From NCBI GenBank assembly GCA_963632705.1, contig CAVGVB010000006.1:13783-77782 (forward strand): a stretch of 64,000 nucleotides of DNA, given 5' to 3'. The stretch comes from a bacterium (GTDB lineage Bacteria; Bacillota; Clostridia; Oscillospirales; Oscillospiraceae). Made by a program: the position numbers and the translations under genes. Numbering within the stretch: the stretch's first letter is position 1; each line of letters starts with the position of its first letter. Below are positions 39,256 to 59,730 of the stretch, one piece after another. Under the pieces are notes generated by a model. It searched no databases. It was not told the origin of the DNA and saw only the letters and a program-made list of their open reading frames with translations.

Positions 39256-39516
39256 TCACTGTTCCGGTGACGCCGCAAACTGCCGGCCGGTGTGGTCGAT
39301 GGTGTAGGGCGGGTCGAGGATCAGCTGGGAGATGGGAATCACGGTGTAGCCGTCGTTGATGAGACAGCTGAGGATGGTGGGCAGAGCTTCCGGCGTGTGC
39401 AGCGCGGCGTTGTGGAACAGGACGATGCTGCCCGGCTGGACCTTGGACATCACCCGCCGGCATATCGTCTCCGCGTCGTAGTCCTTCCAGTCAAGGGAGT
39501 CCCTATCGGCAATGAC
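39256..39516 (-). pseudogene. 3' fragment of a polysaccharide deacetylase gene (copy 1)
   Basis: The translation ...VIADRDSLDWKDYDAETICRRVMSKVQPGSIVLFHNAALHTPEALPTILSCLINDGYTVIPISQLI... is the C-terminal third of a NodB-type deacetylase. No N-terminal part or start codon is present. Confidence 0.7.
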
Positions 39517-39654
39517 TTGAAGCCGTTGCCGCGCAAGGGTTTGCGGGTTTGATGGCGACGCGCATCAGGTGGAAATTTGACCTGTAAATGGGGCGTTTGA
39601 GGGGTGCTTCAGGCGCGGGAGAAGTCAAATACGAGGGGGTGTGCGCGGGGGGAG
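39278..39654. repeat. 377-bp direct repeat, left copy (DR-L)
   Basis: Collinear with 46987-47363 (offset 7709 bp) at roughly 85-90% identity. It covers the deacetylase fragment plus about 140 bp of non-coding sequence ending ...gggggtgtgcgcggggggag. Confidence 0.9.
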
Positions 39655-39736
39655 AAAAGTTAAGGCACGCCAAAATGTGCATGATCGGAATTGAGAAATT
39701 CAACTGAATGAATTATAAAAATTCGACTGAATGATG

Positions 39737-39765
39737 TTGCAAAATGGAAGGGAACGGGATATAAT
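39737..39765 (+). promoter_or_regulatory. sigma-A-type promoter for the ATPase gene
   Basis: TTGCAA, 17 bp, TATAAT. Confidence 0.55.
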
Positions 39766-39794
39766 AAGAGCAATCCGTCATCGAGGTGATTGTA

Positions 39795-41072
39795 ATGGAC
39801 CATCCAGATTACAAACCCCGCGTAATCGACGCTAAGGTGGAGGAATACCTGTCCGCCTTTGGCGCTGCCTGCATTGAGGGGCCGAAATGGTGCGGCAAGA
39901 CATGGACTTCTTCTTACCACAGCAAAAGTGAGATCTATATTGGTAATCCCGCCAATAACTTTCAAAACCGTCAGTTGGCTGAATTGTCTCCCTCGCTGGT
40001 ACTAGAGGGTGAGGCACCGCGCTTGATCGATGAATGGCAGGAAGTTCCCGCGCTATGGGATGCTGTGCGATATAAAGTGGATCAGGTCTCAGAGAAAGGA
40101 CAGTTTATCTTGACCGGTTCCGCTACGCCCAATCACAAGGGTATCCTGCACAGCGGTGCCGGGCGCATCGCAAAGCTGAGGATGCGTCCGATGTCGCTGT
40201 ATGAGTCCGGTGATTCCAGCGGCAAGGTCTCTTTGGAAAAGCTGTGTCATGGCGAACTTACTCCTGCCATGACCGGTGATGTAGACCTCAAAAAGCTGAT
40301 CGAACTGATCCTCCGCGGCGGCTGGCCTGGAAGTCTCGGGCTACCGCTGGAACATGCAATGCTGCTTCCTGCGGAATACTTGAATGCCGTCATCGATGAT
40401 GATGTGTACCGCATTGATGGCGTAAAGCGTGATACGCAGAAAATGCGTTTGCTGCTGCGTTCGCTGGCGCGGAACGAGAGCACCACCGTCACGAATAAGA
40501 CCTTGATGAAAGATATTAAAGCTGTGGATGACGAGGACATTGACGGCAACACAGTAGCGGCCTACTTGGATATTTTCAAGCGGCTGTTCATCACGGATAA
40601 TCAACCACCGTTCTCTGCCGGTATTCGCTCATCCGTCCGAGTAAAACAGGCGGAAAAGCGACATTTCTCTGATCCATCGCTGGCCTGTGCGCTACTGAAG
40701 GCAACCCCTGACAGACTGTTGGGTGATCTGGAAACGCTCGGTTTTTTGTTTGAAGCTCTGTGTGAGAGGGATCTTCGTGTTTATGCGGAATCTTTCGGCG
40801 CAAATCTATACCACTATCAGGACTACAAGAATCAAGAGATAGACGCGGTAATTGAATTGCCGGATGGGCAATGGTGTGCCTTTGAGATCAAGTTGGGAGC
40901 TAACCAGATCGACGCTGCGGCAGCAAATCTTTTGGAGATAGAGAAACAGATCGCAGAAGACCCAAAAGGCAAGTCGCCTGCCGTGCTCTGCGTACTGTGC
41001 GGCATGGCGAATGCCGCTTACCAGCGACCGGATGGAGTTTTTGTCGTGCCGATTACGGCCTTGAAAAACTGA
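39795..41072 (+). CDS. AAA-family ATPase (AAA_14/DUF4143-like)
   Basis: Walker A-like GPKWCGKT and Walker B-like LIDEWQ. The C-terminal half resembles DUF4143 (...YHYQDYKNQEIDAVIE...). GAGGTGA precedes the ATG at 39795. Confidence 0.75.
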   Translation: MDHPDYKPRVIDAKVEEYLSAFGAACIEGPKWCGKTWTSSYHSKSEIYIGNPANNFQNRQLAELSPSLVLEGEAPRLIDEWQEVPALWDAVRYKVDQVSEKGQFILTGSATPNHKGILHSGAGRIAKLRMRPMSLYESGDSSGKVSLEKLCHGELTPAMTGDVDLKKLIELILRGGWPGSLGLPLEHAMLLPAEYLNAVIDDDVYRIDGVKRDTQKMRLLLRSLARNESTTVTNKTLMKDIKAVDDEDIDGNTVAAYLDIFKRLFITDNQPPFSAGIRSSVRVKQAEKRHFSDPSLACALLKATPDRLLGDLETLGFLFEALCERDLRVYAESFGANLYHYQDYKNQEIDAVIELPDGQWCAFEIKLGANQIDAAAANLLEIEKQIAEDPKGKSPAVLCVLCGMANAAYQRPDGVFVVPITALKN

Positions 41073-41086
41073 TTCTTCGGTTCTCA

Positions 41087-42247
41087 GCTGTAGTTCCATG
41101 GTAGTTTTCGGTATGGTATAATCGTCAGGAACAATGCGTCATTGTGGATTGCGTTGTAGTTCCCTGGTAGTTCTTGGTATGGTATAATACTTGTGATATA
41201 GTTGAACAAATCACCAAAGTTGTAGTTCCCTGGTAGTTCTTGGTATGGTATAATCTGCCCTGCAGCGACTTTGTCAGCTCGCCGGTTGTAGTTCCCTGGT
41301 AGTTCTTGGTATGGTATAATGCACGCCTCAGCCACATGATCCCGCATTCGGGTTGTAGTTCCCTGGTAGTTCTTGGTATGGTATAATGAGAGCTGACATT
41401 TGAAAAGCATAATTCTGGTTGTAGTTCCCTGGTAGTTCTTGGTATGGTATAATCTCTGGGACGGCAAGGCGTTTTTGTTCAAGGTTGTAGTTCCCTGGTA
41501 GTTCTTGGTATGGTATAATCGGACAGGGCAATGGCCCGGAAAGGAAAACGTTGTAGTTCCCTGGTAGTTCTTGGTATGGTATAATTGCCGCCAAACAGCG
41601 CGGCACATACGTCAAGTTGTAGTTCCCTGGTAGTTCTTGGTATGGTATAATTGGCATAGAATACACAAAGGGGCAAACGCGGTTGTAGTTCCCTGGTAGT
41701 TCTTGGTATGGTATAATTTCATATTTGCACCCCTTTCTATACTTCACAGTTGTAGTTCCCTGGTAGTTCTTGGTATGGTATAATAGACGAAAAAAAATCG
41801 TATGTCAAGTCAATGTTGTAGTTCCCTGGTAGTTCTTGGTATGGTATAATACGGGCGGATGAGCCGCCCACCCCAGAAGAGTTGTAGTTCCCTGGTAGTT
41901 CTTGGTATGGTATAATTTTCCCGTTGAGTTTCAGTGAGATACTGCGGTTGTAGTTCCCTGGTAGTTCTTGGTATGGTATAATGCTACCAAAAAATTCAAA
42001 GGAGCTGTAAACGTTGTAGTTCCCTGGTAGTTCTTGGTATGGTATAATATCTGAGCTCTGCGGAGATCTCTCAGCAAGGTTGTAGTTCCCTGGTAGTTCT
42101 TGGTATGGTATAATGTTCCCGACAGGTCGGTATCCACGTCTTCGGTTGTAGTTCCCTGGTAGTTCTTGGTATGGTATAATCTTAGAAGCCGCGTCACGGT
42201 CGGCGCGGCCCGTTGTAGTTCCCTGGTAGTTCTTGGTATGGTATAAT
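41087..42247 (+). CRISPR. type II-C CRISPR array, 18 repeats and 17 spacers
   Basis: 36-nt repeat GTTGTAGTTCCCTGGTAGTTCTTGGTATGGTATAAT with spacers of 30-31 nt. Repeats start at 41087 (degenerate, 4 mismatches), 41153, 41219, 41285, 41352, 41418, 41484, 41550, 41616, 41682, 41749, 41815, 41881, 41947, 42013, 42079, 42145 and 42212. The strand is given for the canonical GTTGTAG... orientation. Confidence 0.97.
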
Positions 42248-42256
42248 AGACTACCG

Positions 42257-42295
42257 AAAAAGTCGCTCAAGGCAATGCCTTGGGCGACTTTTTTC
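42257..42295. terminator. bidirectional terminator between the array and cas2
   Basis: aaaa-agtcgctcaagg-caat-gccttgggcgact-tttttt. Confidence 0.8.
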
Positions 42296-42616
42296 TCAAA
42301 AAATCGAGAGCTGTTCACACTGAAATGTATCATCGGCTTCTGATAATTTTCCCAAAAGCACGTCAATGGCTTCGTACTGCTTCTCCGTGATGACCATCAG
42401 GCGGATCGCGCCATTGGCCGGCAGATTTTGCTTGACCCGTTGACGATGCTTTTCCACGGCGTCCATGCCGTTGCAGACGCGGGCATAGACGGAATACTGA
42501 AGCATATGGTATCCGTCCATCAGCAAAAAGTTACGGAAGCGGGTAGCTTCCCGCCGCTGCGCCTTCGTCTTGACCGGCAGGTCGAAAAACACCAGGATCC
42601 TCATAAACTTATTCAT
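42296..42616 (-). CDS. cas2: CRISPR-associated endoribonuclease Cas2
   Basis: 106 aa. MRILVFFDLPVKTKAQRREATRFRNFL... Overlaps the end of cas1. Confidence 0.95.
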   Translation of the reverse strand: MNKFMRILVFFDLPVKTKAQRREATRFRNFLLMDGYHMLQYSVYARVCNGMDAVEKHRQRVKQNLPANGAIRLMVITEKQYEAIDVLLGKLSEADDTFQCEQLSIF

Positions 42617-43508
42617 AGCGGTGCTGCTCGGATTCCAGCAGCGTGGGCAGGGTAAGCTTCATTTCAGGCCGCTCCATAGCACGCCCCAGACTTTGTACCA
42701 GTCGCTCCACGGCATAGGCCACGCTGTGGTGCTGTCGTCCCGATAAGATATCCAGATTCAGGCAGTTGAACAGAAGCCGCTTTTGCGGCGGCGTCAATTC
42801 ATCTTCGGATGCAATGCTCCGCGACACCAGAAGATCGACGACCGGGCGAAACGGCTCAATCAGGTCATCCGCAAGGTTAAAGGCATTCAGCGTACTGCGA
42901 TGGTGCAGTCCCAGCGCAGGCAGGAAGCCGTACACTGCCAGATGGCGTGCAATGCAGCCTCGCAGGATCGCGTAGCCATAGTTCAATCCCGCGTTGATGC
43001 CGTTTTCCTCTCCACGGGTAAAGCCCTGCCCGAATAGCGCCGGAAAATAGAGCTGTGCGGCCGTGGCTTCCACATTTTCGCTGTCGCCGGAGCGCACGCG
43101 GTCGATCATCGCGCGAAGCGTATCCGCTTCCGCGGTGTGCTCTGTCAGCTGCAGGCATATGGCCTGATTCTCTATTTTAGCCTTGACGATGCTTTGCCAC
43201 AGGCGTTTTTTCGCCGGCTCGGTCATGCTCATCTGCATCCGCAGAACGGACAGTCCCCGACTGTGCTGCTGATACGGCGTCAGAACTGCGCAGGGCAGAT
43301 GCTTTTCATCGCAGGTAAAAACGGCGCAGCCGCGCTGTCCCAAGCGGGACAGCGCGGCTGTTGTAATGGTGGTCTGACGGCTTTCCAATAAAAGCGCGGA
43401 AATATCCTCAATGGGCACAGAGTGTTCACTGTCCGTGCGGACGATCAACTGCTCTCTCCGCAAGGAGAGAGCGGCGGGACTCTCAACAATAATATTCCGA
43501 AAAGCCAT
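42609..43508 (-). CDS. cas1: CRISPR-associated endonuclease Cas1 (type II)
   Basis: About 299 aa. AGTGAGGT precedes the ATG at 43508; the track start at 43514 is a TTG. Confidence 0.95.
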   Translation of the reverse strand: MAFRNIIVESPAALSLRREQLIVRTDSEHSVPIEDISALLLESRQTTITTAALSRLGQRGCAVFTCDEKHLPCAVLTPYQQHSRGLSVLRMQMSMTEPAKKRLWQSIVKAKIENQAICLQLTEHTAEADTLRAMIDRVRSGDSENVEATAAQLYFPALFGQGFTRGEENGINAGLNYGYAILRGCIARHLAVYGFLPALGLHHRSTLNAFNLADDLIEPFRPVVDLLVSRSIASEDELTPPQKRLLFNCLNLDILSGRQHHSVAYAVERLVQSLGRAMERPEMKLTLPTLLESEQHRYE

Positions 43509-43517
43509 ACTCAAACC

Positions 43518-46500
43518 TCACTTTCTGCAAAACGCCATGCGCGGCTCTTTCTCGACCTTGTGGTATTCGCCCAGTACATCCACGGTAAACTTTTCCAGAT
43601 TTTCCAGGGTTTTGATTCCCATACCGCCAATCTCGTAGGTATTGTCATGGTTACGGCAACCGATTGCGGCAGTATGGATATTCGCGCTGATGTAATACAG
43701 CATTTCCTGCTTTGCTTCGTAGGTGTCGGGAAGTGTGCTTTCCTTCTGCGCCTTTGTCAGCTTCAGCTTTGTCTTATGGGTCACACGGAGCAGATCATTG
43801 GGGTACAAGGAAAAGATAAAGTTCTTGTCGTCCATCTCCTTCCATTGTTCGTAGGGTTTATACGCCACACACGCCTTGTTGGGCAGCTCCTTTTTCAGCG
43901 TGTCAGCAATATAGATGGGTACAAAGTAATAGCCGTCGTTCTCCACATGGAACACATCGATACGCACCATGCTGTCGTTGTCCGCCACGCCTGTTCCCTT
44001 CAGAACGGAGACGTTCAGCGTCGTGGGTTCACACAGCTTGACCTTGTTGACGACAGGGCCGGGCGTACCGTCGCTTTTCGGCTTATGGAAAGGCTCGGCA
44101 AAAGCCTTGGCCCCGTTGCCGCCGTGCTTCTTTAATTGCTCCTTCAATGCCTCATAGAGCAGACGGTCACTCTGCGGCATATAGTAGTTGGCGATCTCGC
44201 CGGTCTTGGGGTCAAGCTTCAGGTCGGTCAACGCGCGCTTCACGACCACAACGCCGTCCTTCAGCGCCTTGGGACTCTTGACCGTCTCCTTGTGTGCCGC
44301 ACCTGTCACCTTGCGGCGGGGCATACGGGATACAAAGAGCTTCCGCACCGGAATATCGCCGTTGGCATACACAGGGAATCGCTGGGAGATCACAGCGCGG
44401 CGGGGATCCTCACCCAGACGGGCCTCCAACTCTCTGCGGAACTCCGGCCAGGGATAGGGGAACTGCCTCAGTACTTCGCCGGTATATTGGGAAACCGCCA
44501 TGCTGCCAGACTCTGTCTGCACATACTCGCATTCCCGCAGCGCGGCATAACGGCTCACCTGCTGGATCATTCCGTCTGTTGTGCAGGCGATCACCAGCGC
44601 GTCTACCGCGTGGTGCAGATCCCCGTTTTCGCGGATCTTGGTAATGCCCCAGCGCTTGCGCATATAGGAGGTGACAGCGCCGTTGACGGCCGTCACATGC
44701 TTCTTTCGCCCGCTGGCAAAATCGGCAAATTCCAGATGGTCGCTGATATAGTTCAGAAGGAAGCGGGACATGGTTTTGGTGTCCTGCAAATTCCGCTCCT
44801 TGAACTTCTTTTCGTCCTCAGTGGTAATGGTCTCCTTCAGCAGCCGCTGTTTTTTTCTGAAATCGCGGATGCTGCTCTCCACCCAGACAATGAAATCCTC
44901 CCGCCGCTTGCCCTGCAAATATTGCAGCGGCAGGCGGTTGCTCTTGTTGCGGTTTTCCTCCGTGAATACCAGCACCTTGTTTTTATAGCCATCGTCAAAG
45001 GAGATGCTGTACGGAATGATATGATCCACCTCCACATACCCCGGCTCAAAGAGCCGCTCAATGGAGATATGCCTTTGGGAATACGCGCACTCGCCGTGCT
45101 GCTCCTCCCACAGCTTGAATTTCACCAGATCCTGTCCCGTGGGGCATTCCTTGCCGTATTCCGTGCGGATGCGCTCCATGAGCCGCTCATTGCGGGCGCG
45201 GTTTTCGTCCATATCTCTTTTCATCTTGCTGCGCTCCGCGAAGTCGCGGGCCATTTCCCGTGCCAGCTCAATGTTGATAAAGGTCGGACTGCTGCCGCGT
45301 TCACGGATAATGGCGTTAAGGACTTTCACCGTTTGCGAGATTGCGCGCCGCACAACAGGGCTTGTCACATCCGCGAAATCCTCCTCCGTAGGGTGGAGAA
45401 GGCGTGTTCGTGTTTCACCGTCATGTCCCTTGAAATCATATCCCGCAGCGGCGCAGGCCTCGTCGTACTTCATTCCTTTTTCCAGAAAAGGGATCAGCTT
45501 ATCGCAGGCCTTTACGGAAAGGTGGCCGAACTTGCTGAAGCTCATCGTCTCGGCAATGTCGATCTCCATCTCTGACAGGCCGACCGCAGCCAAACGAGGA
45601 CGGATATTGACGGAAGTCTTGTACGTGGAGAGAACGCGTCCCAGCTCATTTTTCTGCTGGCGGGTCAGCCCGTCAAAATGGCTTTTGGAAAGCTTGTTGA
45701 AAGCCGCACGCATTTGGTGATAGGCTCTGAGATAGCAGAACTTTGTTTTCTTTTCCGCCTCCTCATAGTCCTCCGCATTCTTATAGGACACCACATTAAA
45801 CGTCGTACCTGCGGGGATTCCCAGCTCCTTGCGAATACGGGAGAAATTCAGGTCCTTCGTCTTATGTGCCAGCGCGATAAGCGCCTCCCGCTGTGCGCCG
45901 GAAAGCGGACTGCTTTCGCCGCTGCACATCAGCCGCAGGTGGTTGACATTCTGAAGCAGCGCAAAATACTCAAAGGAATAGCTGGCCTTTGCCGCACGCG
46001 GCTCTCCCGCCTCCAACGTACACTTGCCGATCATCTTCTCAATCTGACTCCCTCCATAGGGGCTGCCCTGTCCGGGGCCTTCGTCAAAGGAGCGCTGGCT
46101 CAGGAGTATTTCCAGATATTGCTCCTCCAGTTCCGCCGCCGCGAAAGTCTGTCCCTGTTCGCGCTGGGCCTTGAAGATGGCGCGGACTTCTTCCTCTACC
46201 ATGTCCCGTCCCACGGTCGAAAGGTATTTGCCGCCTTTGTTCCGCTTATTGGCGCTGTACTGCGGGTCTTTCAGCAGCATTTCGCCCACTGTGCGGTAGC
46301 CCTTTTCGGACATGAGCGCACGGTTGGCCGTTACGGCGGCAAGCAGCTCGCCATCCTCCTTCAATGTGCCGGACTTGCGGTTGGACTTGAAACCGCGCCG
46401 CTGCGCGATATGCAGAAGAATACGGGAAAATTCGGTGTTGGACACCGGGGTGTCCAGTGCCTTGACGCGCAGCGCGTAAATATCCTCCAGCTTTCCTTCG

Positions 46501-46781
46501 AAAAGGGTATCCAGCTCCGCTTGAGATACTACCTTTTCCACTATAAGAAGGCGGCGGATGCGTTCTAGGCGATGTTGGTGTCGACGCAGACGGCGGCGCG
46601 CACTTCTGGCTTCCCGCCGGGGTGCGGCCAAAGAATCGCCTGTTTTCGGCTGCTCGGCGGCATCAAAAACGCGGGAGCCCATGTTGATGATGCCGAAAGG
46701 CCTGTCCTCTCCATCCAGAGCGACGACCGCCCAGCCTACCGATGCAATACCAATGTCAAAACCGATAGCGTAGGGATACAT
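43518..46781 (-). CDS. cas9: Cas9, type II-C
   Basis: 1087 aa. RuvC-I motif GFDIGIASVGWAV, an arginine-rich bridge helix, and the HNH motif VEVDHIIPYSISFDDGYKNKVLV...NRNKSNR. No csn2 or cas4 is present in the locus. Confidence 0.97.
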   Translation of the reverse strand: MYPYAIGFDIGIASVGWAVVALDGEDRPFGIINMGSRVFDAAEQPKTGDSLAAPRREARSARRRLRRHQHRLERIRRLLIVEKVVSQAELDTLFEGKLEDIYALRVKALDTPVSNTEFSRILLHIAQRRGFKSNRKSGTLKEDGELLAAVTANRALMSEKGYRTVGEMLLKDPQYSANKRNKGGKYLSTVGRDMVEEEVRAIFKAQREQGQTFAAAELEEQYLEILLSQRSFDEGPGQGSPYGGSQIEKMIGKCTLEAGEPRAAKASYSFEYFALLQNVNHLRLMCSGESSPLSGAQREALIALAHKTKDLNFSRIRKELGIPAGTTFNVVSYKNAEDYEEAEKKTKFCYLRAYHQMRAAFNKLSKSHFDGLTRQQKNELGRVLSTYKTSVNIRPRLAAVGLSEMEIDIAETMSFSKFGHLSVKACDKLIPFLEKGMKYDEACAAAGYDFKGHDGETRTRLLHPTEEDFADVTSPVVRRAISQTVKVLNAIIRERGSSPTFINIELAREMARDFAERSKMKRDMDENRARNERLMERIRTEYGKECPTGQDLVKFKLWEEQHGECAYSQRHISIERLFEPGYVEVDHIIPYSISFDDGYKNKVLVFTEENRNKSNRLPLQYLQGKRREDFIVWVESSIRDFRKKQRLLKETITTEDEKKFKERNLQDTKTMSRFLLNYISDHLEFADFASGRKKHVTAVNGAVTSYMRKRWGITKIRENGDLHHAVDALVIACTTDGMIQQVSRYAALRECEYVQTESGSMAVSQYTGEVLRQFPYPWPEFRRELEARLGEDPRRAVISQRFPVYANGDIPVRKLFVSRMPRRKVTGAAHKETVKSPKALKDGVVVVKRALTDLKLDPKTGEIANYYMPQSDRLLYEALKEQLKKHGGNGAKAFAEPFHKPKSDGTPGPVVNKVKLCEPTTLNVSVLKGTGVADNDSMVRIDVFHVENDGYYFVPIYIADTLKKELPNKACVAYKPYEQWKEMDDKNFIFSLYPNDLLRVTHKTKLKLTKAQKESTLPDTYEAKQEMLYYISANIHTAAIGCRNHDNTYEIGGMGIKTLENLEKFTVDVLGEYHKVEKEPRMAFCRK

Positions 46782-46802
46782 AGCATGTCCTCCTCATACT
46801 CC

Positions 46803-46902
46803 CGGATAGAGATAACGCCCCGCTTACGCGAGGCGTTAGAGCTCTGCGGTGTACTACCTTATCATAGTAACCTGCATAGTTCTTGGTATGGTATAAAGAA
46901 CT
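46803..46902 (-). ncRNA. predicted tracrRNA
   Basis: Positions 46877-46896 are identical on the plus strand to repeat positions 16-35, so minus-strand RNA is complementary to the crRNA. Positions 46861-46876 pair with repeat positions 1-15 through G-U wobbles and a 2-nt internal bulge. An AAGG nexus follows, then the hairpin AACGCCUC-GCGUAAGC-GGGGCGUU (46837-46814). The ends are approximate. Confidence 0.7.
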
Positions 46903-46908
46903 ATAACC

Positions 46909-46937
46909 AATATAGCATGAATTTTAACGAATTGCAA
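46909..46937 (-). promoter_or_regulatory. promoter for the tracrRNA
   Basis: On the minus strand: TTGCAA (46937-46932), 17 bp, TATATT (46914-46909). Confidence 0.5.
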
Positions 46938-46958
46938 GGGCTTTGTATATTTTTCTGC

Positions 46959-47225
46959 TTATTCTGCGGATAACATCTCCGTCGGGAACTGCCGCCCGGT
47001 ATGGTCGATGGTGTAGTCTCCCGTCAGGATCAGCTGGCTGATGGGCACCACGGTGTAGCCGTCGTTGATGAGGTATTCCAAAATGCGTGGCAGCGCCTCT
47101 GGCGTGTGCAGCGCCGCGTTGTGGAACAGCACGATGCTGCCCGGCTGCACCCTGGACGTCACCCGCTGATAGATGGTGTCGGCATCGTAGTCCTTCCAGT
47201 CCAGGGAGTCCCTATCGGCAATGGC
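46959..47225 (-). pseudogene. 3' fragment of a polysaccharide deacetylase gene (copy 2)
   Basis: ...DSLDWKDYDADTIYQRVTSRVQPGSIVLFHNAALHTPEALPRILEYLINDGYTVVPISQLI... is a paralogue of copy 1 and is likewise 5'-truncated. Confidence 0.7.
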
Positions 47226-47363
47226 TTGAAGCCATTGCGGCGCAAGGGTTTGCGGGTTTGACTGAAATGCGCATCAGGCAAAAAATTGACCTGTAAATGG
47301 GGCGCTTGAGGAGTGTTTCAGGCGCGGGAGAGGTCAAATACGAGGGGGTGTGCGCGGGGGGAG
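46987..47363. repeat. 377-bp direct repeat, right copy (DR-R)
   Basis: See DR-L. Confidence 0.9.
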
Positions 47364-47391
47364 GTGGTTGAAAGGAATTGCGTCCGAATGA

Positions 47392-47420
47392 GAAAAGTGT
47401 GCAATCATTGCACACTTTTC
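47392..47420. repeat. palindromic hairpin family AAGTGTGCAATCATTGCACACTT, copy 1
   Basis: gaaaagtgtgcaatcattgcacacttttc. The same 23-bp core recurs at 54268-54293 and 63834-63856. Confidence 0.9.
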
Positions 47421-47446
47421 CTTGCAGACAGCTTTTGAGATAAAGC

Positions 47447-47476
47447 AAAGCACGGAGTCAAAAGGCTCCGTGCTTT
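47447..47476 (-). terminator. terminator of the flavin reductase gene
   Basis: aaagcacggag...ctccgtgcttt, with a T-rich tail on the minus strand. Confidence 0.75.
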
Positions 47477-47480
47477 ACGC

Positions 47481-48041
47481 TTATTTCAGTTTTTTGCCGT
47501 CCTCAAAGGCGTTGCCGACTTTCTCGCCAAGGACGAGGTAGTCGTTGTGCACAGGGTCAAAGGTGATCGGCTGCAGCTTCTGCGGGTCGATCTTCCCTTC
47601 CTTGTCCAGAATGCGTTCGTCGGCGGAGACGTTCACGATCGCGCCCAGCAACAGCTCAGACTCCTCGTCAAAGCTGATCAGTTTGCACTCCAGCGTCATG
47701 GGCAGTTCGTCGATAACCGGTGCGTCCACCACCTCGCTCTTGGTCACATGGAATCCGGCGCGCGCCATCTTATCCGGCGTTGTATTGCCGGAGACAATGC
47801 CCACATAGCCGCAGGCGTCCACATGGGCCGCGTCCGCCATGCTGACGGTAAATGCCTTGTGGTTCAGGATGTTTTTCACCGTTTTGTGGCTGCCGCTGAG
47901 GTACATGGCGATGCGGTTCATGTCCGCGATACCGCCCCAAGCGGCATTCATGGCGTCTGGAGTACCATCCTCGCCGTAGGTCGCGATGATCAAAACGGGC
48001 TGAGGGTACAGCCCGGGCTTTGCTCCAAAATTCTTACGCAT
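47481..48041 (-). CDS. flavin reductase-like (FMN-binding split-barrel) protein
   Basis: AGGAGG, then the ATG at 48041. MRKNFGAKPGLYPQPVLIIATYGEDGTPDAMNAAWGG... Confidence 0.8.
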   Translation of the reverse strand: MRKNFGAKPGLYPQPVLIIATYGEDGTPDAMNAAWGGIADMNRIAMYLSGSHKTVKNILNHKAFTVSMADAAHVDACGYVGIVSGNTTPDKMARAGFHVTKSEVVDAPVIDELPMTLECKLISFDEESELLLGAIVNVSADERILDKEGKIDPQKLQPITFDPVHNDYLVLGEKVGNAFEDGKKLK

Positions 48042-48187
48042 AGTTCCGTCCTCCTGCTTCAAGATTATACTACCCTCATGAGGGAAGAAAGAGAAAGACT
48101 TAGTAAAATCCGCATTTAGTTATTCTTTATTTTGCTTTTCTATATTTGGTTGTGGGGGGGCCTGTCCAGGTTTTCCCAAGACAGGTT

Positions 48188-48571
48188 TTACTGTTTTAGA
48201 AAAGCGCGTTTAAGTGCGGCACCGGCATTTTCAGCCTGAATGGGATTTTCCCGTTTAGGTGGTTTCGGCTTCCTGGGGCTGCTCCAAAATGGTATATTCG
48301 ATGCCGGCCAGCGTACCTCTGCGCGGCATTCCCTCTCCCTATCCCGCACCGCTGCGCAGATGCGGGCCAGTCCTTTCGTGGTGGAGTTCCAATCCTCCGG
48401 CAGTGACAACATTAGGGACAGCAGCCCTTTCACCTTCAGTGACCGCGACTTATCCCGCAGATGGTGATTTGACTGACGGTATAGTTCTGCGTTTTTCTCC
48501 ACCTTGAATACAGCTATGGGCGTTCCCCCTTTCTTAAAATACATTTTGTAAGTTAAAAAGCATAACATCAC
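48188..48571 (-). pseudogene. degenerate helix-turn-helix gene typical of Firmicutes mobile elements
   Basis: The N-terminal part ...LRDKSRSLKVKGLLSLMLSLPEDWNSTTKGLARIC resembles a family I recall from conjugative and integrative elements. The remainder is frame-scrambled and Arg/Pro-rich. Confidence 0.4.
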
Positions 48572-48592
48572 TCAAGCCAAAAGAAATTCCAG

Positions 48593-48621
48593 TTGATGAA
48601 ATGAGCAATATTTGATATAAT
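48593..48621 (+). promoter_or_regulatory. strong sigma-A-type promoter about 280 nt upstream of the HEPN-like gene
   Basis: TTGATG (48593-48598), 17 bp, TATAAT (48616-48621). Confidence 0.55.
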
Positions 48622-48902
48622 GAGTATTGATAAGGCTTTACGCGAAGTGATGAAAGATAACGCAAAAATCTTTTTAAAATTACCTGCACAAACCTTGGTT
48701 ATGCCTCTAACATTACCAAGCCGATAGGCAATCTGTTGCCCATCAACAAGTCATTTGCAGACTCAATGCTATGGTGTATAAAGCGCATTTTTACCATTCA
48801 CGACTCACTTGCTATTGAGCAAAATAATTAATAAATATCTCGAAGACTGATATTGGGTATCGAATAAACTGATAACCACGCTTTACAAAAAGGAGGCTGT
48901 TT

Positions 48903-50669
48903 ATGAAGTATAGCATACCAAGACAAAGCAATCATAATCTAGAATCTGATGGAATAGTATTTTTTGCACAGCGATTGGAGGAAATGCTAGCGGATAGTGC
49001 GGTAGACTTATATAAGATGCCCCTTTTGAATACGCAAAGTTTAGCTTCAGAATACTGTAAAGTTTCAGAAGACGTAACTTCTGGATTACTTAAAGAGCAC
49101 TACAGAACCGCTGTATATGAAGAATTTATTTCTTCCTTCAAAAACGATATTGTTCTTAAGGAAAATTGGGGCAAGGATAATATCGAACGTGTAATAAAAT
49201 CCTTTGGATCTAGTAATCAAAAGACTAAGAACAACATTATCGCGTATATCGATGCAACTTTGGATAATGGTAAATACTTAAACTGGACAAAAGATACTAT
49301 TCTTAAGTATACAAATCTCCCTAAGGAAAAATCAAAAATCGAGGCATTATTAAGGTGTTTCTTACCGGAACTTATTATGTGGGGATATGATCCTGAATTT
49401 ATAGCTGTTACTCTCAATACCCACTTTTTTAGAGGCGCTATCATAAGCAATGACACCGTAAAGAGTTTTTTAGATGTCTTTGACTTGAAAGTCCATGAGT
49501 ATAAAGTGTATTTTTCTGTCTCGACAATCGCCCAAAATTTCAAGACAATCCTTGAGAAAAGATTGCATGTTCACTTTGAAGATGATGGGAATTTTAACTC
49601 TTTTAAGCATGACCGCAATAAAATTGTCATATATTTTGATGGGATCAGAGCGCGTTGTCCAAATACCGCGGCAAAAAGAGCATACAGCTATCTAGACATG
49701 TTTTTTAGTTTTTATAAGTATGTAGGCAATAAGAGAAGCCTTCCTTTGCAAAATAGGGCAATGGTAATTGAAAAAAACACTAGGCCTGTTTTTGTCGGCG
49801 CAAAAAAACAATCCTTTGCCATTATTGAAGATATCAATTATACAGAAATTGGCGAGCAGTCCGATTTCCTTATTACAGGGTTGCTAAACAATGCAGAGAA
49901 TGAATACTCTATGCTTAGCAAAGCTATTGAACTACATAATACTGCCCTCGCTGTTTCCGATTTGAAAAGTGGTTTTTTGAACCTATGGTCAGCCATGGAA
50001 ATCCTTTCGCAAGAACAAGGCTCGGATAGTAAACTTGGCCCTGTACTTGCGTTGGTTATTCCGATTTTGAAAAAAGAATATATTTCAACGCAAATCCGTG
50101 AATTAAACAAAGCAATTAAAGATAATCTATCGCCGGAGGATTATCAGCGCATATATGAACAAATTGCCATTGAAGGTTGTGAAACCAAAAAAACATTTTA
50201 TTTGATATACTTGGATAAATATGCAACTATACGTAATGAATTATTCGAGAAATTGAGTGCTGTGCCTCTTTTGAGGAGTCGAATACACTTACTGTCAAGC
50301 GCTTCTACAACGAAAAAACTAAACACCATGATCACTGCATACAGTCAAAGGATTACATGGCATATGTATCGTATGTACCGAACAAGAAATGCTATTGCTC
50401 ATTCTGGCGATGTTCCGAATAATTTGAAATATCTTGGAGAGCATCTTCGCTCCTATCTAGATTCGACAACAAACGAGTTTGCTGTAAAATTGTCCGGAGA
50501 AATCCCTTTTAGCTCAAGAGAAGATATTATCACGGATTTGAAATTTGCATTATCTAGACTTGAGAGCTTCCTCGAAAAAGATATTCCCATAAACGAAGAG
50601 GTAATCAATGTACTACTACATCCTGAAATCAGTTATACTATGAATTGCGAAAAACATACTCAGCTATAG
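48903..50669 (+). CDS. 588-aa protein with a C-terminal HEPN-like Rx4H motif (Abi-like candidate)
   Basis: AAGGAGG RBS. The gene is AT-rich (about 36-40% GC) against a 60% GC background. The C-terminal alpha-helical region contains ...ITWHMYRMYRTRNAIAHSG (R-N-A-I-A-H at 50385-50402). The N-terminal 330 aa or so have no motif I recognise. Confidence 0.7.
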   Translation: MKYSIPRQSNHNLESDGIVFFAQRLEEMLADSAVDLYKMPLLNTQSLASEYCKVSEDVTSGLLKEHYRTAVYEEFISSFKNDIVLKENWGKDNIERVIKSFGSSNQKTKNNIIAYIDATLDNGKYLNWTKDTILKYTNLPKEKSKIEALLRCFLPELIMWGYDPEFIAVTLNTHFFRGAIISNDTVKSFLDVFDLKVHEYKVYFSVSTIAQNFKTILEKRLHVHFEDDGNFNSFKHDRNKIVIYFDGIRARCPNTAAKRAYSYLDMFFSFYKYVGNKRSLPLQNRAMVIEKNTRPVFVGAKKQSFAIIEDINYTEIGEQSDFLITGLLNNAENEYSMLSKAIELHNTALAVSDLKSGFLNLWSAMEILSQEQGSDSKLGPVLALVIPILKKEYISTQIRELNKAIKDNLSPEDYQRIYEQIAIEGCETKKTFYLIYLDKYATIRNELFEKLSAVPLLRSRIHLLSSASTTKKLNTMITAYSQRITWHMYRMYRTRNAIAHSGDVPNNLKYLGEHLRSYLDSTTNEFAVKLSGEIPFSSREDIITDLKFALSRLESFLEKDIPINEEVINVLLHPEISYTMNCEKHTQL

Positions 50670-50722
50670 TATTTTTGAATGGATATTTACTGCCCTGGAG
50701 TTTTTTCATTTAACACTATACT

Positions 50723-50770
50723 CGAAGCCCGGAATGCCAAAATTTTGGTTTTCCGGGCTTCGTTATATTT
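50723..50770 (+). terminator. intrinsic terminator
   Basis: cgaagcccggaa-(16 nt)-ttccgggcttcg followed by a T-rich tail. Confidence 0.75.
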
Positions 50771-50896
50771 CTGCTATGTACTACGCTACTCGTCCCTTAT
50801 GGAAACAGCAGGTATGTTACTGCCTAATGCACAACTGGGTTTCTAGACAGACTGGGTCGGCGCAGGGGATTGAACTGCGCCGGCTTCTTACATTTA

Positions 50897-52366
50897 TTAT
50901 TTATCATTTTTCTTCAGATACCGTACTTTCTTCACTGCTTCCCAATGCATCGCCTCTGCGTTGATCGGTGGCAAAGTGTCACCCCAGGGAACGGGAGCGT
51001 CAGCCATTTTTACCTCAACCGGCAATCCACCGAAGGGGCGCACGGCATTCGGAGTGGAGATACTCACAGAAGCATTTGGACTACCCTCAAAATGCAGATG
51101 TAATTTTTGACCATACACGGCTGACTCCCAGGGAATCCTGATCATACCCTGTCCGCGGCCTTCCTGTGCTACGATACCGTCACCTACGATGAGCTGAGGA
51201 AAATGAAGTTCGTAGAGTTTTTTGCAAAAGGGTGCTTTGTCCAGCTTTTGCGCAATGCGCCATAGGCGATCCATATTACGGCTGTACTCAATGCACTTTT
51301 TCGCACCATCCTTGCCGGAGATCCTGTGGCCGAAAATGTATTCTTTCTCCTCCAGCGACATATCTGTACACGCCTGGAGTACCGTCGCAAAATTCCGACG
51401 CAATATCCGCATGGGCGGGTGCGAATCCGATGGCGTAAAATTATCAGGCTCGTCGAGCAAGAAAAAGCCTAACTGCTCGCTGGAAACGCCAAATTCCTTC
51501 AACAATTTGAAAGCAAAATTTGAATAATCAGGCCCGCGGCATGGCGTTTTAAACTCATTTCCAAAGCAGACGATGGGTAACTCCCCGATATCCTTGTTCG
51601 CGCCCATACTCTGCTGCACAAATTTTTTCCGCTTCTGCAGAGCACCCTCGATTTCAATGTGAACGGGAACGCACCGTAGCGCGTTTTTTGTTTTCACCTG
51701 CTTGCTGTACATCAATTTATCATTCAAAATTTCGTCAATTTTCAGGTAATGCCGGTCTGGATGATCTGGGAACGAGCGAAAATCGTTCCACCGCAGTCCA
51801 CGGCACTCCGCGGGGCGCATGCCAGTGTACAATGAGATCAAAATGCCGCAGAAGCGCCCGTCCTCCAGTGCATGTTCCGCCGCATATAGCGCCAGACGTC
51901 CCTGCTGCCCAATTGTCAAGGCCCGCGGGCAACTATCGTTCAGCTCCGCGTTTGCCTCTGCCGGGGCTAAGATCCTCTGCATCATCAAAGTCGTAAGATT
52001 ATTCGACTTATCTCCTGCACGATTTTTTGAAAGGATGTTGTAAGCATGTCCGCATGTAGCGGCGTAGGAAAAGACGTCCCGCAATGACGAGATGATCGTC
52101 TTAACGGTCGCTTCTTGGTATTTGCATTCCTTAGCGACTTTAGAGACAGCGAGCAGAATATTTGCCGGAGTAATTTCGGAGATTGACATATCTAGATGGC
52201 CTGCAACCTTTTTGATGTAGTCATCGTATTGGCGAAGTGTCGTACAGGTTTCAAAACTGTATTGATCTCCCGCCTGGATCGCCCAGTGGCGATCTTTTGC
52301 GATAGAAATGCAGTGTTTTTTCCGGTAGCTCTTAAGGCTCAAATCTCCATCAGTCTTAGATTTCAT
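50897..52366 (-). CDS. tyrosine recombinase-like protein with a C-terminal extension of about 130 aa
   Basis: 489 aa. Arg-I in LYTGMRPAECRGLRW, a beta-hairpin Lys in KTKNALRCVPV, ILRRNFATVL (the R of HxxR is kept, the H is replaced by R), FGHR, and Tyr in CIEYS. Confidence 0.7.
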   Translation of the reverse strand: MKSKTDGDLSLKSYRKKHCISIAKDRHWAIQAGDQYSFETCTTLRQYDDYIKKVAGHLDMSISEITPANILLAVSKVAKECKYQEATVKTIISSLRDVFSYAATCGHAYNILSKNRAGDKSNNLTTLMMQRILAPAEANAELNDSCPRALTIGQQGRLALYAAEHALEDGRFCGILISLYTGMRPAECRGLRWNDFRSFPDHPDRHYLKIDEILNDKLMYSKQVKTKNALRCVPVHIEIEGALQKRKKFVQQSMGANKDIGELPIVCFGNEFKTPCRGPDYSNFAFKLLKEFGVSSEQLGFFLLDEPDNFTPSDSHPPMRILRRNFATVLQACTDMSLEEKEYIFGHRISGKDGAKKCIEYSRNMDRLWRIAQKLDKAPFCKKLYELHFPQLIVGDGIVAQEGRGQGMIRIPWESAVYGQKLHLHFEGSPNASVSISTPNAVRPFGGLPVEVKMADAPVPWGDTLPPINAEAMHWEAVKKVRYLKKNDK

Positions 52367-52367
52367 A

Positions 52368-53863: not shown

Positions 53864-53885
53864 ATATTAACCCTCATGCGGCACA

Positions 53886-54008
53886 GTGGCCGGAGGGGAG
53901 GTATTAAATTATTATCATCATCTTGGTGTCATTCTCCTTTCAAGCGAGTAATCGTACTCTCGCATATATTATTATAGTCTCTTCAGCGGCTCCCTCCCCT
54001 CCGTCCAC
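53886..54008. repeat. 16-bp inverted repeats flanking a 91-bp AT-rich spacer next to the recombinase start
   Basis: GTGGCCGGAGGGGAGG (53886-53901) against CCTCCCCTCCGTCCAC (53993-54008). 15 of 16 positions are complementary. Confidence 0.6.
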
Positions 54009-54300: not shown

Positions 54301-54328
54301 AGCGGCATCACGCACATTTTTCGAGTGC

Positions 54329-56851: not shown

Positions 56852-56871
56852 GGAGACACCCCCTTGCTTTC

Positions 56872-59723: not shown

Positions 59724-59730
59724 AAGCAAA

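What the first reader, a model, noticed from the sequence alone, without database searches (positions are those of the whole stretch)
39256..47363. Complete Cas9 cassette bracketed exactly by 377-bp direct repeats carrying truncated deacetylase gene ends
Positions 39278-39654 and 46987-47363 are collinear direct repeats of equal length, offset by 7709 bp and about 85-90% identical. Each contains the C-terminal third of a NodB-type polysaccharide deacetylase ORF plus about 140 bp of conserved non-coding sequence, which includes a conserved hairpin (gcaatggct-tga-agccattgc).

Everything between the repeats forms one functional unit: ATPase promoter and gene, CRISPR array, cas2, cas1, cas9, and the tracrRNA with its promoter. 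Nothing else lies between them.

This geometry would allow gain or loss of the whole CRISPR-Cas module by homologous recombination. It could also mean the module arrived on an element that targets, or carries, that sequence. The level of divergence argues against a very recent duplication.
Basis: seen in the sequence. Interest (0 to 1): 0.65.

Follow-up and report, generated by a model that had tools for sequence, protein, structure and literature searches.

The report
Nested defence islands bracket a Cas9 locus
The two repeats around the Cas9 locus are not a duplication but the matching scars of two separate mobile islands that each cut into a cell-wall deacetylase gene at the same nucleotide, so the CRISPR-Cas9 system sits as cargo inside one island with a second island nested in it.

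Summary
Window 39278-39654 and 46987-47363 are collinear direct repeats, 318/377 identical, offset 7709. They bracket only a DUF4143 ATPase, a CRISPR array, cas2, cas1, cas9 and tracrRNA.

Each repeat has two parts:
- The last 81-85 codons of a PdaB-like NodB deacetylase.
- A ~150-nt non-coding module, "X".

X is the conserved end of a family of insertions in gut Oscillospiraceae. I found 27 X copies: 23 joined to the deacetylase 3' part and 4, in inverted orientation, joined to the 5' part. All join at one GA dinucleotide in the codons QWDV|DSLDW. Empty sites with intact genes exist at two loci, with flanks 99-99.8% identical to occupied ones.

The two deacetylase parts in the window come from two different genes. 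One is the resident gene beside the aldose epimerase. The other is a gene that travels with cas9.

Best model: an outer island carrying the spare deacetylase, Cas9 locus and ATPase inserted into the resident gene. A second island then inserted into the spare copy. This second island holds a flavin reductase, defence genes and a large serine recombinase. Contigs with only the first step exist.

This is a new member of a known kind, of moderate interest.

The parts
39256..39499 (-). C1: the displaced 3' part (81 codons plus stop) of the resident clade-I PdaB-like deacetylase gene. It is contiguous with the aldose-epimerase flank.
   Evidence: Translation; family matches. In L002 the intact gene continues upstream with a 99.8% identical flank. 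C1 is 96% identical in nucleotides to L002.
39500..39501 (-). Putative crossover dinucleotide (GA on the gene strand) of the left junction, the attR-type site of the outer island.
   Evidence: The same GA is shared by intact genes, the X_R·C junctions and the X_L·N junctions.
39502..39654 (-). X1: the ~150-nt right terminal module (X_R) of the outer island (E-alpha).
   Evidence: nhmmer profile hit, E 1.8e-47. The same X-ATPase junction occurs in L001, L008, L037 and L042-45 beside three different kinds of flank.
39786..41072 (+). DUF4143/AAA_14 ATPase, which matches the candidate defence family PDC-S01. It is the first cargo gene inside X1.
   Evidence: Pfam; PADLOC E 1.6e-61. It is 97% identical in amino acids to the L037 ATPase.
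41087..42247 (+). CRISPR array: 18 repeats of 36 nt, the one at 41087 degenerate. Each repeat ends in TGGTATAAT.
42296..42616 (-). cas2
   Evidence: Pfam CRISPR_Cas2.
42609..43514 (-). cas1
   Evidence: Pfam Cas_Cas1.
43518..46781 (-). cas9 (1087 aa). The locus looks like type II-C.
   Evidence: TIGR01865, 804 bits; Pfam HNH_4 and RuvC_III.
46800..46930 (-). tracrRNA region. The anti-repeat is at 46877-46911 and a terminator hairpin lies near 46815-46838.
   Evidence: Repeat family D3; sequence. The transcript limits are inferred.
46959..47208 (-). C2: the 3' part of the cas9-linked clade-II deacetylase gene (deacetylase-2).
   Evidence: The first 75 codons match L031's intact cas9-linked gene at 75/75 amino acids. 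Nucleotide identity over the C part is 96.4%. Collinearity with L004, L031, L037 and L042 stops exactly at 47211.
47209..47210 (-). Putative crossover dinucleotide (GA) of the right junction, the attR-type site of the inner island.
   Evidence: Same register as 39500-39501.
47211..47363 (-). X2: the right terminal module (X_R) of the inner island (E-beta).
   Evidence: nhmmer E 6e-49. The flavin-reductase-X_R arrangement is shared with L009, L015, L019 and L025.
47364..64000 (.). Interior of the inner island, which runs off the window. It contains a flavin reductase (47481-48062, -), an ApeA-like gene (48903-50669, +), a trio of tyrosine-recombinase-like ORFs (50897-53863, -), an 840-aa ORF, a type III restriction endonuclease (56872-59268, -), and a conserved core (60117-63872) holding a large serine recombinase (60579-62045, +) and a 563-aa HATPase-like gene.
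   Evidence: Pfam, NCBIfam and PADLOC. In L014 and L040 the same core (91-92.5% nt) is followed by a Fic gene, X_L and the 5' part of a deacetylase gene.

Best explanation
The two 377-bp repeats are two independent right-end junctions (attR-type, 'X_R·C') of a family of site-specific integrative islands. These islands insert into PdaB-like polysaccharide deacetylase genes of gut Oscillospiraceae at one GA dinucleotide, in the codons QWDV|DSLDW.

Proposed history:
- Step 1: An outer island (E-alpha) integrated into the resident deacetylase gene next to the aldose epimerase. This left X1·C1 at 39256-39654. The right-terminal cargo of E-alpha is, in order, a complete second deacetylase gene, tracrRNA-cas9-cas1-cas2-array and a DUF4143 ATPase.
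- Step 2: A second island of the same family (E-beta) integrated into the same site of the cargo copy of the deacetylase gene. E-beta carries a flavin reductase, defence genes, a tyrosine-recombinase trio, a type III restriction enzyme and a large serine recombinase core. This left X2·C2 at 46959-47363.

The Cas9 cassette therefore looks bracketed by direct repeats only because the outer island carries a spare copy of the family's own target.

The recombinase is most likely the large serine recombinase at 60579-62045. It would cut at the central GA of dyad-symmetric attB and attP sites.

What is shown: the junction geometry, the empty sites, the step-1-only state, and the linkage of the recombinase core to the left end.

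What is inferred: that this serine recombinase does the job, and that the left end of E-beta, joined to the 5' part of deacetylase-2, lies about 2-3.5 kb beyond the window's end.
For: (1) Spread of X. An nhmmer profile finds X in 27 copies. These are the two in the window plus copies in L001, L008-L021, L023-L030, L037, L040 and L042-45. 23 are joined to the DSLDW... 3' part. Four (L014, L017, L027, L040) are inverted and joined to the ...QWDV 5' part. All join at the same GA.

(2) Empty sites.
- L002 is 99.8% identical to window 33538-39502, then continues as an intact gene.
- L047 and L048 carry an intact gene. L047's downstream flank is 98-99.5% identical to eight occupied contigs. Those contigs hold at least four different interiors, and homology starts exactly at the junction.

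(3) Independent origins. Of the 21 X_R·C copies tested, 14 have a 75/75-aa intact twin and 3 more a 74/75 twin. At least 8 distinct lineages are represented, including the very divergent L024.

(4) Two source genes. C1 is clade I (96% nt to L002). C2 is clade II (96% nt to L031). Differences between them are biased to third codon positions, 8/11/24.

(5) Step-1-only state. L042-45 carry an uninterrupted deacetylase-2, cas9-cas1-cas2-array, the ATPase and X_R·C. In L042, L043 and L045 this is followed by epimerase and GH94 (L044 ends at the C remnant). L046 shows only the left part, up to cas2. L042 is 90% identical to the window, and homology to the window stops at 47211.

(6) Mobility of the outer island.
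- The same ATPase-X_R end lies next to other flanks: L037 (AKR locus) and L008 (ABC-transporter locus).
- L037 and L042 share a block from LysR to X_R but have different right flanks.

(7) Recombinase linkage. The LSR core (window 60117-63872) is followed by Fic, X_L and the 5' deacetylase part in L014 and L040. The cargo upstream of the core differs: a recombinase trio in L014, Druantia in L040.

(8) Dyad symmetry around the GA.
- attB scores 11-12/25. The background along the gene is 6.4±2.3, and 15 of 737 positions reach 12.
- A reconstructed attP scores 18/25.
- This is as expected for serine integrases with ~25-bp half-sites around a central dinucleotide (PMC3783163).
- Site-specific serine-recombinase elements are known to integrate inside genes and disrupt them (PMC5704250).

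(9) X is not an RNA. There is no Rfam family and no covariation.
Against: - No complete element with both ends on one contig was recovered.
- The left end of E-alpha was not found within 9 kb upstream in L037, nor in L042.
- The left end of E-beta lies outside the window. L038 extends 1.4 kb further without reaching it.
- No LSR was identified within 10 kb of X_L in L027 (only some of its ORFs were examined).
- About 150 nt of conserved inverted terminal sequence is far more than the 40-50 bp a serine integrase needs, and this is unexplained.
- The dyad symmetry of attB is only modestly above background.
- Deacetylase-cas9 adjacency is widespread and old (L004 and L011, 78-83% nt identity). 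So the cassette could be ancestrally chromosomal in some lineages rather than always cargo.
- All comparison data are metagenome contigs or MAGs.
Confidence: 0.6

Rival explanations
1. Shuffling by homologous recombination. The cassette, with X at one end and a deacetylase 3' part at the other, moved as a circle or fragment. It entered a pre-existing X·C junction (or an intact deacetylase gene) by Campbell-type homologous recombination through the ~380-bp homology. Equivalently, recombination between X copies at different loci fused the ATPase-X1 end to C1. On this view the cassette can be lost again by recombination between the two repeats.
For: - A single crossover near the X|C boundary would give exactly the observed partners: X1 with the ATPase, C1 resident, C2 with cas9, X2 with flavin reductase.
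- L029 has a flavin-reductase-type interior directly at X·C-epimerase. That is the arrangement expected without the cassette.
- Identical runs of up to 31 nt exist between the repeats.
- In run X1 the cassette has depth 50-100 while the epimerase flank has about 0-3.
Against: - In L031, L037 and L042 the whole clade-II deacetylase gene plus 64 nt upstream travels with cas9, not only its 3' part.
- L037 and L042 share a block that extends far upstream of the cassette.
- C1 is clade-I-like, and C2 96% clade-II, with no sign of mosaicism: C1 matches clade-I variants from the first base after GA.
- 84% identity makes RecA-dependent exchange inefficient.
- No in-register 7709-bp deletion joint was found in four metagenomes.
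Confidence: 0.2
2. Tandem accretion of a cis-mobilizable element. The 7.7-kb interval is an integrase-less element flanked by att sites. [quoted passage not shown] It can be excised in trans by the neighbour's recombinase.
For: - The interval has no recombinase of its own and is bounded by two like sites next to an island with recombinases.
- Accretion is well documented for tyrosine-recombinase elements (PMC5704250).
Against: - Both boundaries are the same junction type (X_R·C). There is no attL-type site, so this is not an attL/attR pair.
- Serine integrases do not recombine attR with attR or with attB (PMC3783163).
- The step-1-only contigs show the second insertion went into an intact gene copy, not into an att site.
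Confidence: 0.08
3. X is the terminal inverted repeat of a cut-and-paste (DDE) or tyrosine-recombinase (RIT/Tn554-like) transposon with a 2-3-bp target duplication. The serine recombinase is only cargo.
For: - The ~150-nt inverted terminal modules are 85% identical between the left and right consensus, which is transposon-like.
- A GGA overlap at the junctions could be a 3-bp duplication.
- A trio of tyrosine-recombinase-like genes lies inside the island, and next to X_R in L030.
- RIT elements have terminal inverted repeats (PMC10214605).
Against: - No DDE transposase was found in any interior examined.
- The trio sits at variable distance and orientation from X. It was not detected by nucleotide similarity in most loci, whereas the LSR core keeps a fixed position relative to X_L in L014, L040 and the window.
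- The termini lack TG...CA.
- Strict single-site targeting with dyad symmetry centred on a 2-bp overlap fits a serine recombinase better.
Confidence: 0.1
4. Plain segmental duplication of a truncated pseudogene plus upstream sequence, followed by neutral divergence.
For: The repeats are of equal length, collinear and 84% identical.
Against: - C1 and C2 each have a near-identical intact counterpart in different genes.
- Differences are biased to third codon positions.
- The non-coding part is more conserved than the coding part.
- The same junction occurs with at least 8 deacetylase lineages.
Confidence: 0.02

Closest known systems
Site-specific integrative islands and IMEs driven by large serine recombinases that insert inside genes. 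Examples are serine-recombinase IMEs in rumA of streptococci, Tn4451/Tn5397 and SCCmec Ccr (PMC5704250).
   Same: - They integrate at one site inside a protein-coding gene and disrupt it.
- Only a very short sequence is shared at both junctions.
- An LSR with Resolvase, Recombinase and Zn_ribbon_recom domains is present.
- Cargo is variable.
- Precise empty sites exist.
   Different: - The target here is a PdaB-like NodB deacetylase. I found no report of this target in the searched literature.
- The ends here are ~150-nt conserved inverted modules rather than ~25-bp half-sites.
- The LSR lies about 3.5-4 kb from the end rather than adjacent to it.
- No transfer or mobilisation genes were seen.
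- One island carries a spare copy of the target gene.
Gene-intervening elements of spore formers: skin in sigK, SPbeta in spsM, and gin in gerE (PMC4191935, PMC5499854, PMC5595907, PMC5025042).
   Same: - A large-serine-recombinase element interrupts the reading frame of a gene whose best family match is a sporulation protein. PdaB TIGR02764 scores 202 bits.
- Precise reconstitution is possible in principle.
- The closest NCBIfam match of the recombinase is XisF, a developmental excisase.
   Different: - The PdaB score is below the equivalog cut-off of 237 bits.
- No sporulation-specific regulation or directionality factor was identified.
- The locus is strongly polymorphic, with many cargo variants.
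- Excision during development is untested.
Tandem accretion of ICE, IME or CIME elements at one att site (ICESt1/CIME; PMC5704250).
   Same: - Two related islands lie side by side.
[quoted passage not shown]
- An integrase-less interval lies between like sites.
   Different: - Here the second insertion went into a second, intact copy of the target gene carried by the first island. This is nesting, not integration into an att site.
- Both repeats are the same junction type.
- The chemistry is probably serine-recombinase, which does not use attR as a substrate.
Type II-C CRISPR-Cas9 loci of the Neisseria meningitidis type.
   Same: - The locus has cas9-cas1-cas2 without csn2 or cas4.
- The repeat is 36 nt and starts GTTGTAG.
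- Each repeat ends in an extended -10 box (TGGTATAAT).
- tracrRNA lies upstream of cas9 on the same strand (comparison from my own knowledge of the Neisseria locus).
   Different: - This locus is embedded, with a deacetylase gene and a DUF4143 ATPase, at the end of a mobile island.
- Repeat-embedded promoter activity was not tested.
Recombinase-in-trio (RIT) elements (PMC10214605, PMC8138268).
   Same: Three adjacent tyrosine-recombinase-like ORFs lie in the island, and the island has terminal inverted repeats.
   Different: - The trio ORFs give only weak Pfam hits (E 6e-4 to 4e-2), and two of them overlap as if frameshifted.
- The trio is not at a fixed distance from X, and it is inverted between loci.
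- RIT membership was not established.

Membership tests
Large-serine-recombinase integrative element | The element encodes an LSR with Resolvase, Recombinase and Zn-ribbon domains. | tested here: met
   Window 60579-62045 hits PF00239, PF07508 and PF13408 (E 8e-38, 8e-15, 3e-11). The best NCBIfam matches are XisF and Ccr.
Large-serine-recombinase integrative element | attB and attP are dyad-symmetric around a 2-bp crossover that is retained in attL and attR. | tested here: met
   GA is common to intact genes, the X_R·C junctions and the X_L·N junctions. attB symmetry is 11-12/25 against a background of 6.4±2.3. Reconstructed attP symmetry is 18/25. The attB signal is modest.
Large-serine-recombinase integrative element | Precise empty sites exist, and no target duplication exceeds the crossover. 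| tested here: met
   L002 and L047 carry intact genes, and homology breaks within a 3-nt ambiguity.
Large-serine-recombinase integrative element | The recombinase gene is consistently linked to the att ends. | tested here: inconclusive
   The LSR core lies about 3.5-4 kb from X_L in L014 and L040, and by homology in the window. No LSR was identified within 10 kb of X_L in L027. The right-end loci are too short to tell.
Large-serine-recombinase integrative element | The LSR catalyses attP x attB recombination. | not testable with these tools
   This needs an in vitro or in vivo recombination assay.
Sporulation gene-intervening element (skin, SPbeta, gin type) | The interrupted gene is a sporulation gene. 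| tested here: inconclusive
   Intact relatives score 202 bits on PdaB TIGR02764. This is the best family but falls below the 237-bit cut-off.
Sporulation gene-intervening element (skin, SPbeta, gin type) | The element is excised in the mother cell under sporulation control, with a directionality factor. | not testable with these tools
   Small ORFs of 71 and 67 aa flank the LSR in L038 and L040. No function could be assigned to them.
CIME / tandem accretion | An integrase-less element is flanked by attL-type and attR-type sites made by integration into a resident att site. | tested here: not met
   Both flanking sites are X_R·C. The step-1-only contigs L042-45 show an intact target copy where the second junction now is.
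Segmental duplication | The two copies descend from one sequence in the same genome. | tested here: not met
   C1 and C2 belong to different deacetylase clades, each with a near-identical intact counterpart.
Type II-C CRISPR-Cas | The locus has cas9, cas1 and cas2 only, with a tracrRNA anti-repeat and an array. | tested here: met
   There is no csn2- or cas4-like ORF between 39655 and 46986.
RIT element | Three tyrosine recombinases (RitA/B/C) lie between terminal inverted repeats. | tested here: inconclusive
   The three ORFs give weak Phage_integrase-family hits. No pair of inverted repeats flanks them in the window.

The most novel reading that the evidence does not exclude
Gut Oscillospiraceae may harbour a previously undescribed family of serine-recombinase defence islands with these properties:
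- They use a universally conserved codon block of NodB deacetylase genes (QWDV|DSLDW) as attB.
- They have unusually long (~150-nt) inverted terminal modules.
- They swap cargo at a conserved palindrome.
- At least one lineage carries a spare target gene together with a complete type II-C CRISPR-Cas9, so islands nest like Russian dolls.

If the target is a true sporulation pdaB, the islands could be excised developmentally, like skin or SPbeta, to rebuild the gene in the mother cell.
Probability: 0.2. Interest if true: 0.7.

Novelty: new member of a known kind. Interest (0 to 1): 0.5.

Why it matters
- It turns an odd-looking repeat geometry into a testable mechanism, with a defined attB, two att arms and a candidate serine integrase. 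That integrase has a natural target inside a widely conserved enzyme motif.
- It shows one way a complete Cas9 system moves between gut Clostridia: as end-cargo of a site-specific island.
- It identifies a highly polymorphic defence hotspot. One chromosomal site holds at least four cargo variants plus an empty site within 99%-identical flanks.
- New serine integrase and att pairs are useful genome-engineering reagents.
- An island that carries a decoy or spare copy of its own target raises the question of how islands compete for, or share, an integration site.

Tried and rejected
- **X as an RNA.** Rfam gave nothing at gathering or E-value thresholds for X. RNAalifold on 18 distinct copies gave a covariation term of -0.33 with one compensatory pair. 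I rejected a riboswitch, sRNA or intron end.
- **X as decayed coding sequence.** I considered that X is degenerate deacetylase sequence (an RPxY-like motif in another frame). This was rejected once intact alleles showed unrelated sequence at that position.
- **A small functional ORF in X·C.** There is no conserved start codon.
- **X in phages or plasmids.** No X-containing matches were found in INPHARED phages or PLSDB plasmids. Only the neighbouring palindrome hit two unannotated faecal phage contigs. There were no matches in IMG/VR.
- **Excision reads.** Only Logan contigs of mixed metagenomes were available. The joints seen (39306>47192, 39307>47028) are out of register and are mosaics of other alleles.
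- **Exact-protein look-ups.** The flavin reductase and cas1 found nothing.
- **A withdrawn inference.** I first read four L-copy/L002 differences next to the junction as a crossover inside the coding part. I withdrew this because other clade-I genes share the L-copy state.
- **A replacement 3' end.** I considered a tyrosine-integrase model in which the element supplies only a new 3' end for the gene. I rejected it because the whole clade-II gene plus 64 nt upstream travels with cas9, and because inverted X_L·N junctions exist.

Full report
**Observation**

Window 39278-39654 and 46987-47363 align without gaps at offset 7709, with 318/377 identical positions (84.4%). The BLAST E-value is 1e-120. 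Sequence just outside the repeat is at random identity, 25-30%.

On the minus strand each copy ends with the last 81-85 codons of a NodB-type deacetylase (DSLDWKDYDA...IVLFHNAALHTPEALP...). It matches positions 124/127-191 of the 191-position PdaB profile and the C-terminus of PgdA structures. Upstream of it, in gene direction, lie 152 nt with no reading frame.

Between the repeats lie only these features:
- a DUF4143/AAA_14 ATPase (39786-41072, +)
- an 18-repeat CRISPR array (41087-42247)
- cas2, cas1 and cas9 (42296-46781, -)
- the tracrRNA anti-repeat (46877-46911)

**What the non-coding part is**

A MAG contig, L002, is 99.8% identical to window 33538-39502. It then diverges exactly at the boundary between the coding and non-coding parts and continues as an intact deacetylase ORF (...RCPYGEYDDHVIAAIRSMGMEPIQWDVDSLDWKD...). 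So the non-coding part, which I call X, belongs to something inserted in the gene.

I scanned the GTDB genome and JGI metagenome collections for a 19-mer of X, then ran an nhmmer profile. Together these gave 27 copies of a ~150-nt module, GCGCACACCCCCTCGATTTTGACC...CATTGCCGATAG.
- 23 copies are joined to GGAYTCCCT.GAYTGGAAGGA (DSLDWKD).
- 4 copies (L014, L017, L027, L040) have a distinct tip (CATTTMCRGTNGC). They are joined to the reverse complement of ...ATYCAGTGGGATGTGGA, the 5' side of the same gene.

So X sits at both ends of insertions in inverted orientation: N·X_L...interior...X_R·C. The left and right consensus sequences are 85% identical over about 150 nt. X has no Rfam match and no covariation, so it is a DNA-level feature.

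**The junction**

Intact genes read ...CCAGTGGGATGTG-GA-CTCCCTGGACTGG.... Left junctions read GATGTG-GA-GCTACCG. Right junctions read CGATAGG-GA-CTCCC.
- The only shared bases are GA, or GGA at most.
- The gene sequence has dyad symmetry (CCAGT/ACTGG) centred on that GA. It scores 11-12 of 25 positions, against 6.4±2.3 along the gene.
- A reconstructed attP scores 18/25.

This is the signature of a serine recombinase site: ~25-bp half-sites around a central dinucleotide (PMC3783163).

The window encodes a large serine recombinase at 60579-62045, with best NCBIfam matches XisF and Ccr. The block 60117-63872 that contains it recurs at 91-92.5% identity in L014 and L040. There it is followed by a Fic gene, X_L and the 5' deacetylase part, while the cargo upstream differs: a tyrosine-recombinase trio in L014, Druantia type I in L040.

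L038, a 97.8% relative, extends 1.4 kb past the window's end without reaching X_L. By homology X_L should lie about 2-3.5 kb beyond position 64000. This is an inference.

**Site-specificity and polymorphism**

Of the 21 X_R·C copies tested, 14 have an intact-gene twin with 75/75 identical residues in the protein database, and 3 more have a 74/75 twin. At least eight lineages are covered, including a very divergent one, L024. The same nucleotide has therefore been used with many different deacetylase alleles.

At a second chromosomal locus (deacetylase-298 aa-sigma factor-MatE), L047 and L048 carry the intact gene. Eight other contigs are 98-99.5% identical to L047 from the junction onward but hold at least four different interiors next to X_R. 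These include flavin reductase plus an unknown 272-aa ORF or a Fic gene, a helicase pair, and the recombinase trio.

Cargo is rich in defence genes (PADLOC):
- a type III restriction endonuclease
- an ApeA-like gene
- the DUF4143 ATPase, which matches candidate family PDC-S01
- Druantia (in L040)

**Why there are two copies in the window**

The two coding parts come from different genes.
- C1 (39256-39499) is clade I. It is 96% identical in nucleotides to L002 and contiguous with the epimerase flank.
- C2 (46959-47208) is clade II. It is 96.4% identical in nucleotides, and 75/75 in amino acids, to the intact deacetylase that lies directly upstream of a 92-95% identical cas9 in L031.

Their differences fall mainly on third codon positions (8/11/24; 18 synonymous versus 12 non-synonymous codon changes). 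This is as expected for two genes that diverged while functional, not for a decaying duplicate.

Three sets of contigs constrain the history.
- L037 carries an intact clade-II deacetylase, cas9, cas1, cas2, the array, the ATPase and X_R·C, followed by a different flank (303 aa, aldo-keto reductase).
- L042-45 carry the same series with an uninterrupted deacetylase across the GA site. In L042, L043 and L045 it is followed by X_R·C-epimerase-GH94-LacI, the window's own locus. L042 is 90% identical to the window, and homology to the window stops at 47211.
- L008 has ATPase-X_R·C next to ABC transporters.

L037 and L042 share a block reaching from LysR to X_R, yet their right flanks differ. The whole clade-II gene plus 64 nt upstream, not only its 3' part, is shared between L031 and L037.

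The simplest history has two steps.
- Step 1: an outer island inserted into the resident gene. Its right end carries ATPase, array, cas2, cas1, cas9, tracrRNA and a complete spare deacetylase gene.
- Step 2: a second island inserted into the spare gene.

The second island's right end (flavin reductase-X_R) is the commonest type elsewhere (L009, L015, L019, L025). L011 shows that a cas9-linked deacetylase has been hit independently in another lineage, with 78% identity to the window.

**Rivals**

A Campbell-type homologous insertion of a cassette circle into a pre-existing X·C would give the same partners. L029 (flavin-reductase-type interior at X·C-epimerase) looks like a cassette-free state. 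However:
- the shared blocks are larger than the cassette
- the coding parts show no sign of mosaicism between clades
- no in-register deletion joint was seen

A CIME-type accretion fails because both sites are the same junction type. A DDE or RIT transposon is not excluded, but no DDE transposase was found in the interiors examined and the trio is not positionally linked to X. Plain duplication is contradicted.

**Comparison with known systems**

The islands work like site-specific serine-recombinase islands that integrate inside genes (PMC5704250). They also resemble gene-intervening elements of spore formers (PMC4191935, PMC5595907).

Membership of the first group is supported on four points:
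- the recombinase domains
- crossover geometry
- precise empty sites
- linkage of the recombinase core to the left end

Catalysis is untested. For the second group, the target is only PdaB-like (202 bits versus a cut-off of 237) and developmental excision is untestable here.

Three features are unusual:
- the ~150-nt inverted terminal modules
- the spare target gene
- the resulting nesting

I found no report of a deacetylase attB in the searched literature.

**Verdict**

The finding is a new member of a known kind and is moderately interesting. Its main interest is as a route for Cas9 mobility, as a polymorphic defence hotspot, and as a source of a new integrase/att pair.

**Limits**

All relatives are metagenome contigs or MAGs. 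No island was seen end to end. The recombinase assignment is inferred.

Noticed in passing
window 47392-47421, 54268-54292, 63830-63859; also L009, L014, L015, L019, L023, L025, L027, L030, L038, L040: A 25-30-nt perfect palindrome, GAAAAGTGTGCAAT(C/G)ATTGCACACTTTTC, recurs inside these islands. It sits at the edges of blocks that are exchanged or inverted between loci; for example, homology with L014 and L040 ends at 63872, and with L030 and L014 at 54298. It could be a shared bidirectional terminator or a module-exchange site. It also hits two unannotated faecal 'Bacteriophage sp.' contigs (MT836507.1, MT838439.1).
   Followed up: partly
window 50897-53863 (-): Three adjacent tyrosine-recombinase-like ORFs of 288, 247 and 489 aa in order of transcription, with weak Pfam hits. 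The first two overlap at 52997-53111 as if frameshifted. The block is inverted relative to the serine-recombinase core in L014 and lies next to X_R in L030. It may be a RIT- or Tn554-like unit inside the island.
   Followed up: partly
window 48100-51000: A low-GC patch (0.35-0.39 against 0.52-0.65 around it) holds a 588-aa ORF with a weak ApeA (PADLOC) match and a 127-aa ORF of unknown function. It is probably a recently acquired defence gene.
   Followed up: partly
window 54329-59268 (-): A type III restriction endonuclease (798 aa, PADLOC REase_III, E 3e-155) lies next to an 840-aa ORF with no family match. The 840-aa ORF might be a divergent Mod subunit or an unrelated partner.
   Followed up: no
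window 41087-42247: Every CRISPR repeat ends in TGGTATAAT, an extended -10 box. This suggests repeat-embedded promoters that transcribe the array towards cas2, as described for Neisseria type II-C loci (comparison from my own knowledge).
   Followed up: no
L042:1270-4151 and L031:15415-16118: A second, different large serine recombinase (516 aa) and a 399-aa DUF4143 ATPase replace the first ~65 codons of the cas9-linked deacetylase in L042-46. A fragment of the same recombinase and a 197-nt remnant of the cassette ATPase lie after the array in L031. So the cassette borders have been remodelled by yet another element.
   Followed up: partly
L004:2468-7130: In this relative a clade-I deacetylase is followed by cas9 and then directly by a CRISPR array, with no cas1 or cas2. 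It is an adaptation-less variant of the locus.
   Followed up: no
window 7750-7797 (-): Rfam ssnA RNA motif (RF03031, 71.7 bits, above the gathering score), upstream of a 509-aa ORF on the same strand.
   Followed up: no
window 1-2803 versus L031:6167-8955: The histidine-kinase, response-regulator and glycosyltransferase genes that directly flank deacetylase-cas9 in L031 are homologous (81%) to the first 2.8 kb of the window, which lies 36 kb from the cassette. This points to large-scale rearrangement of the region between species.
   Followed up: no
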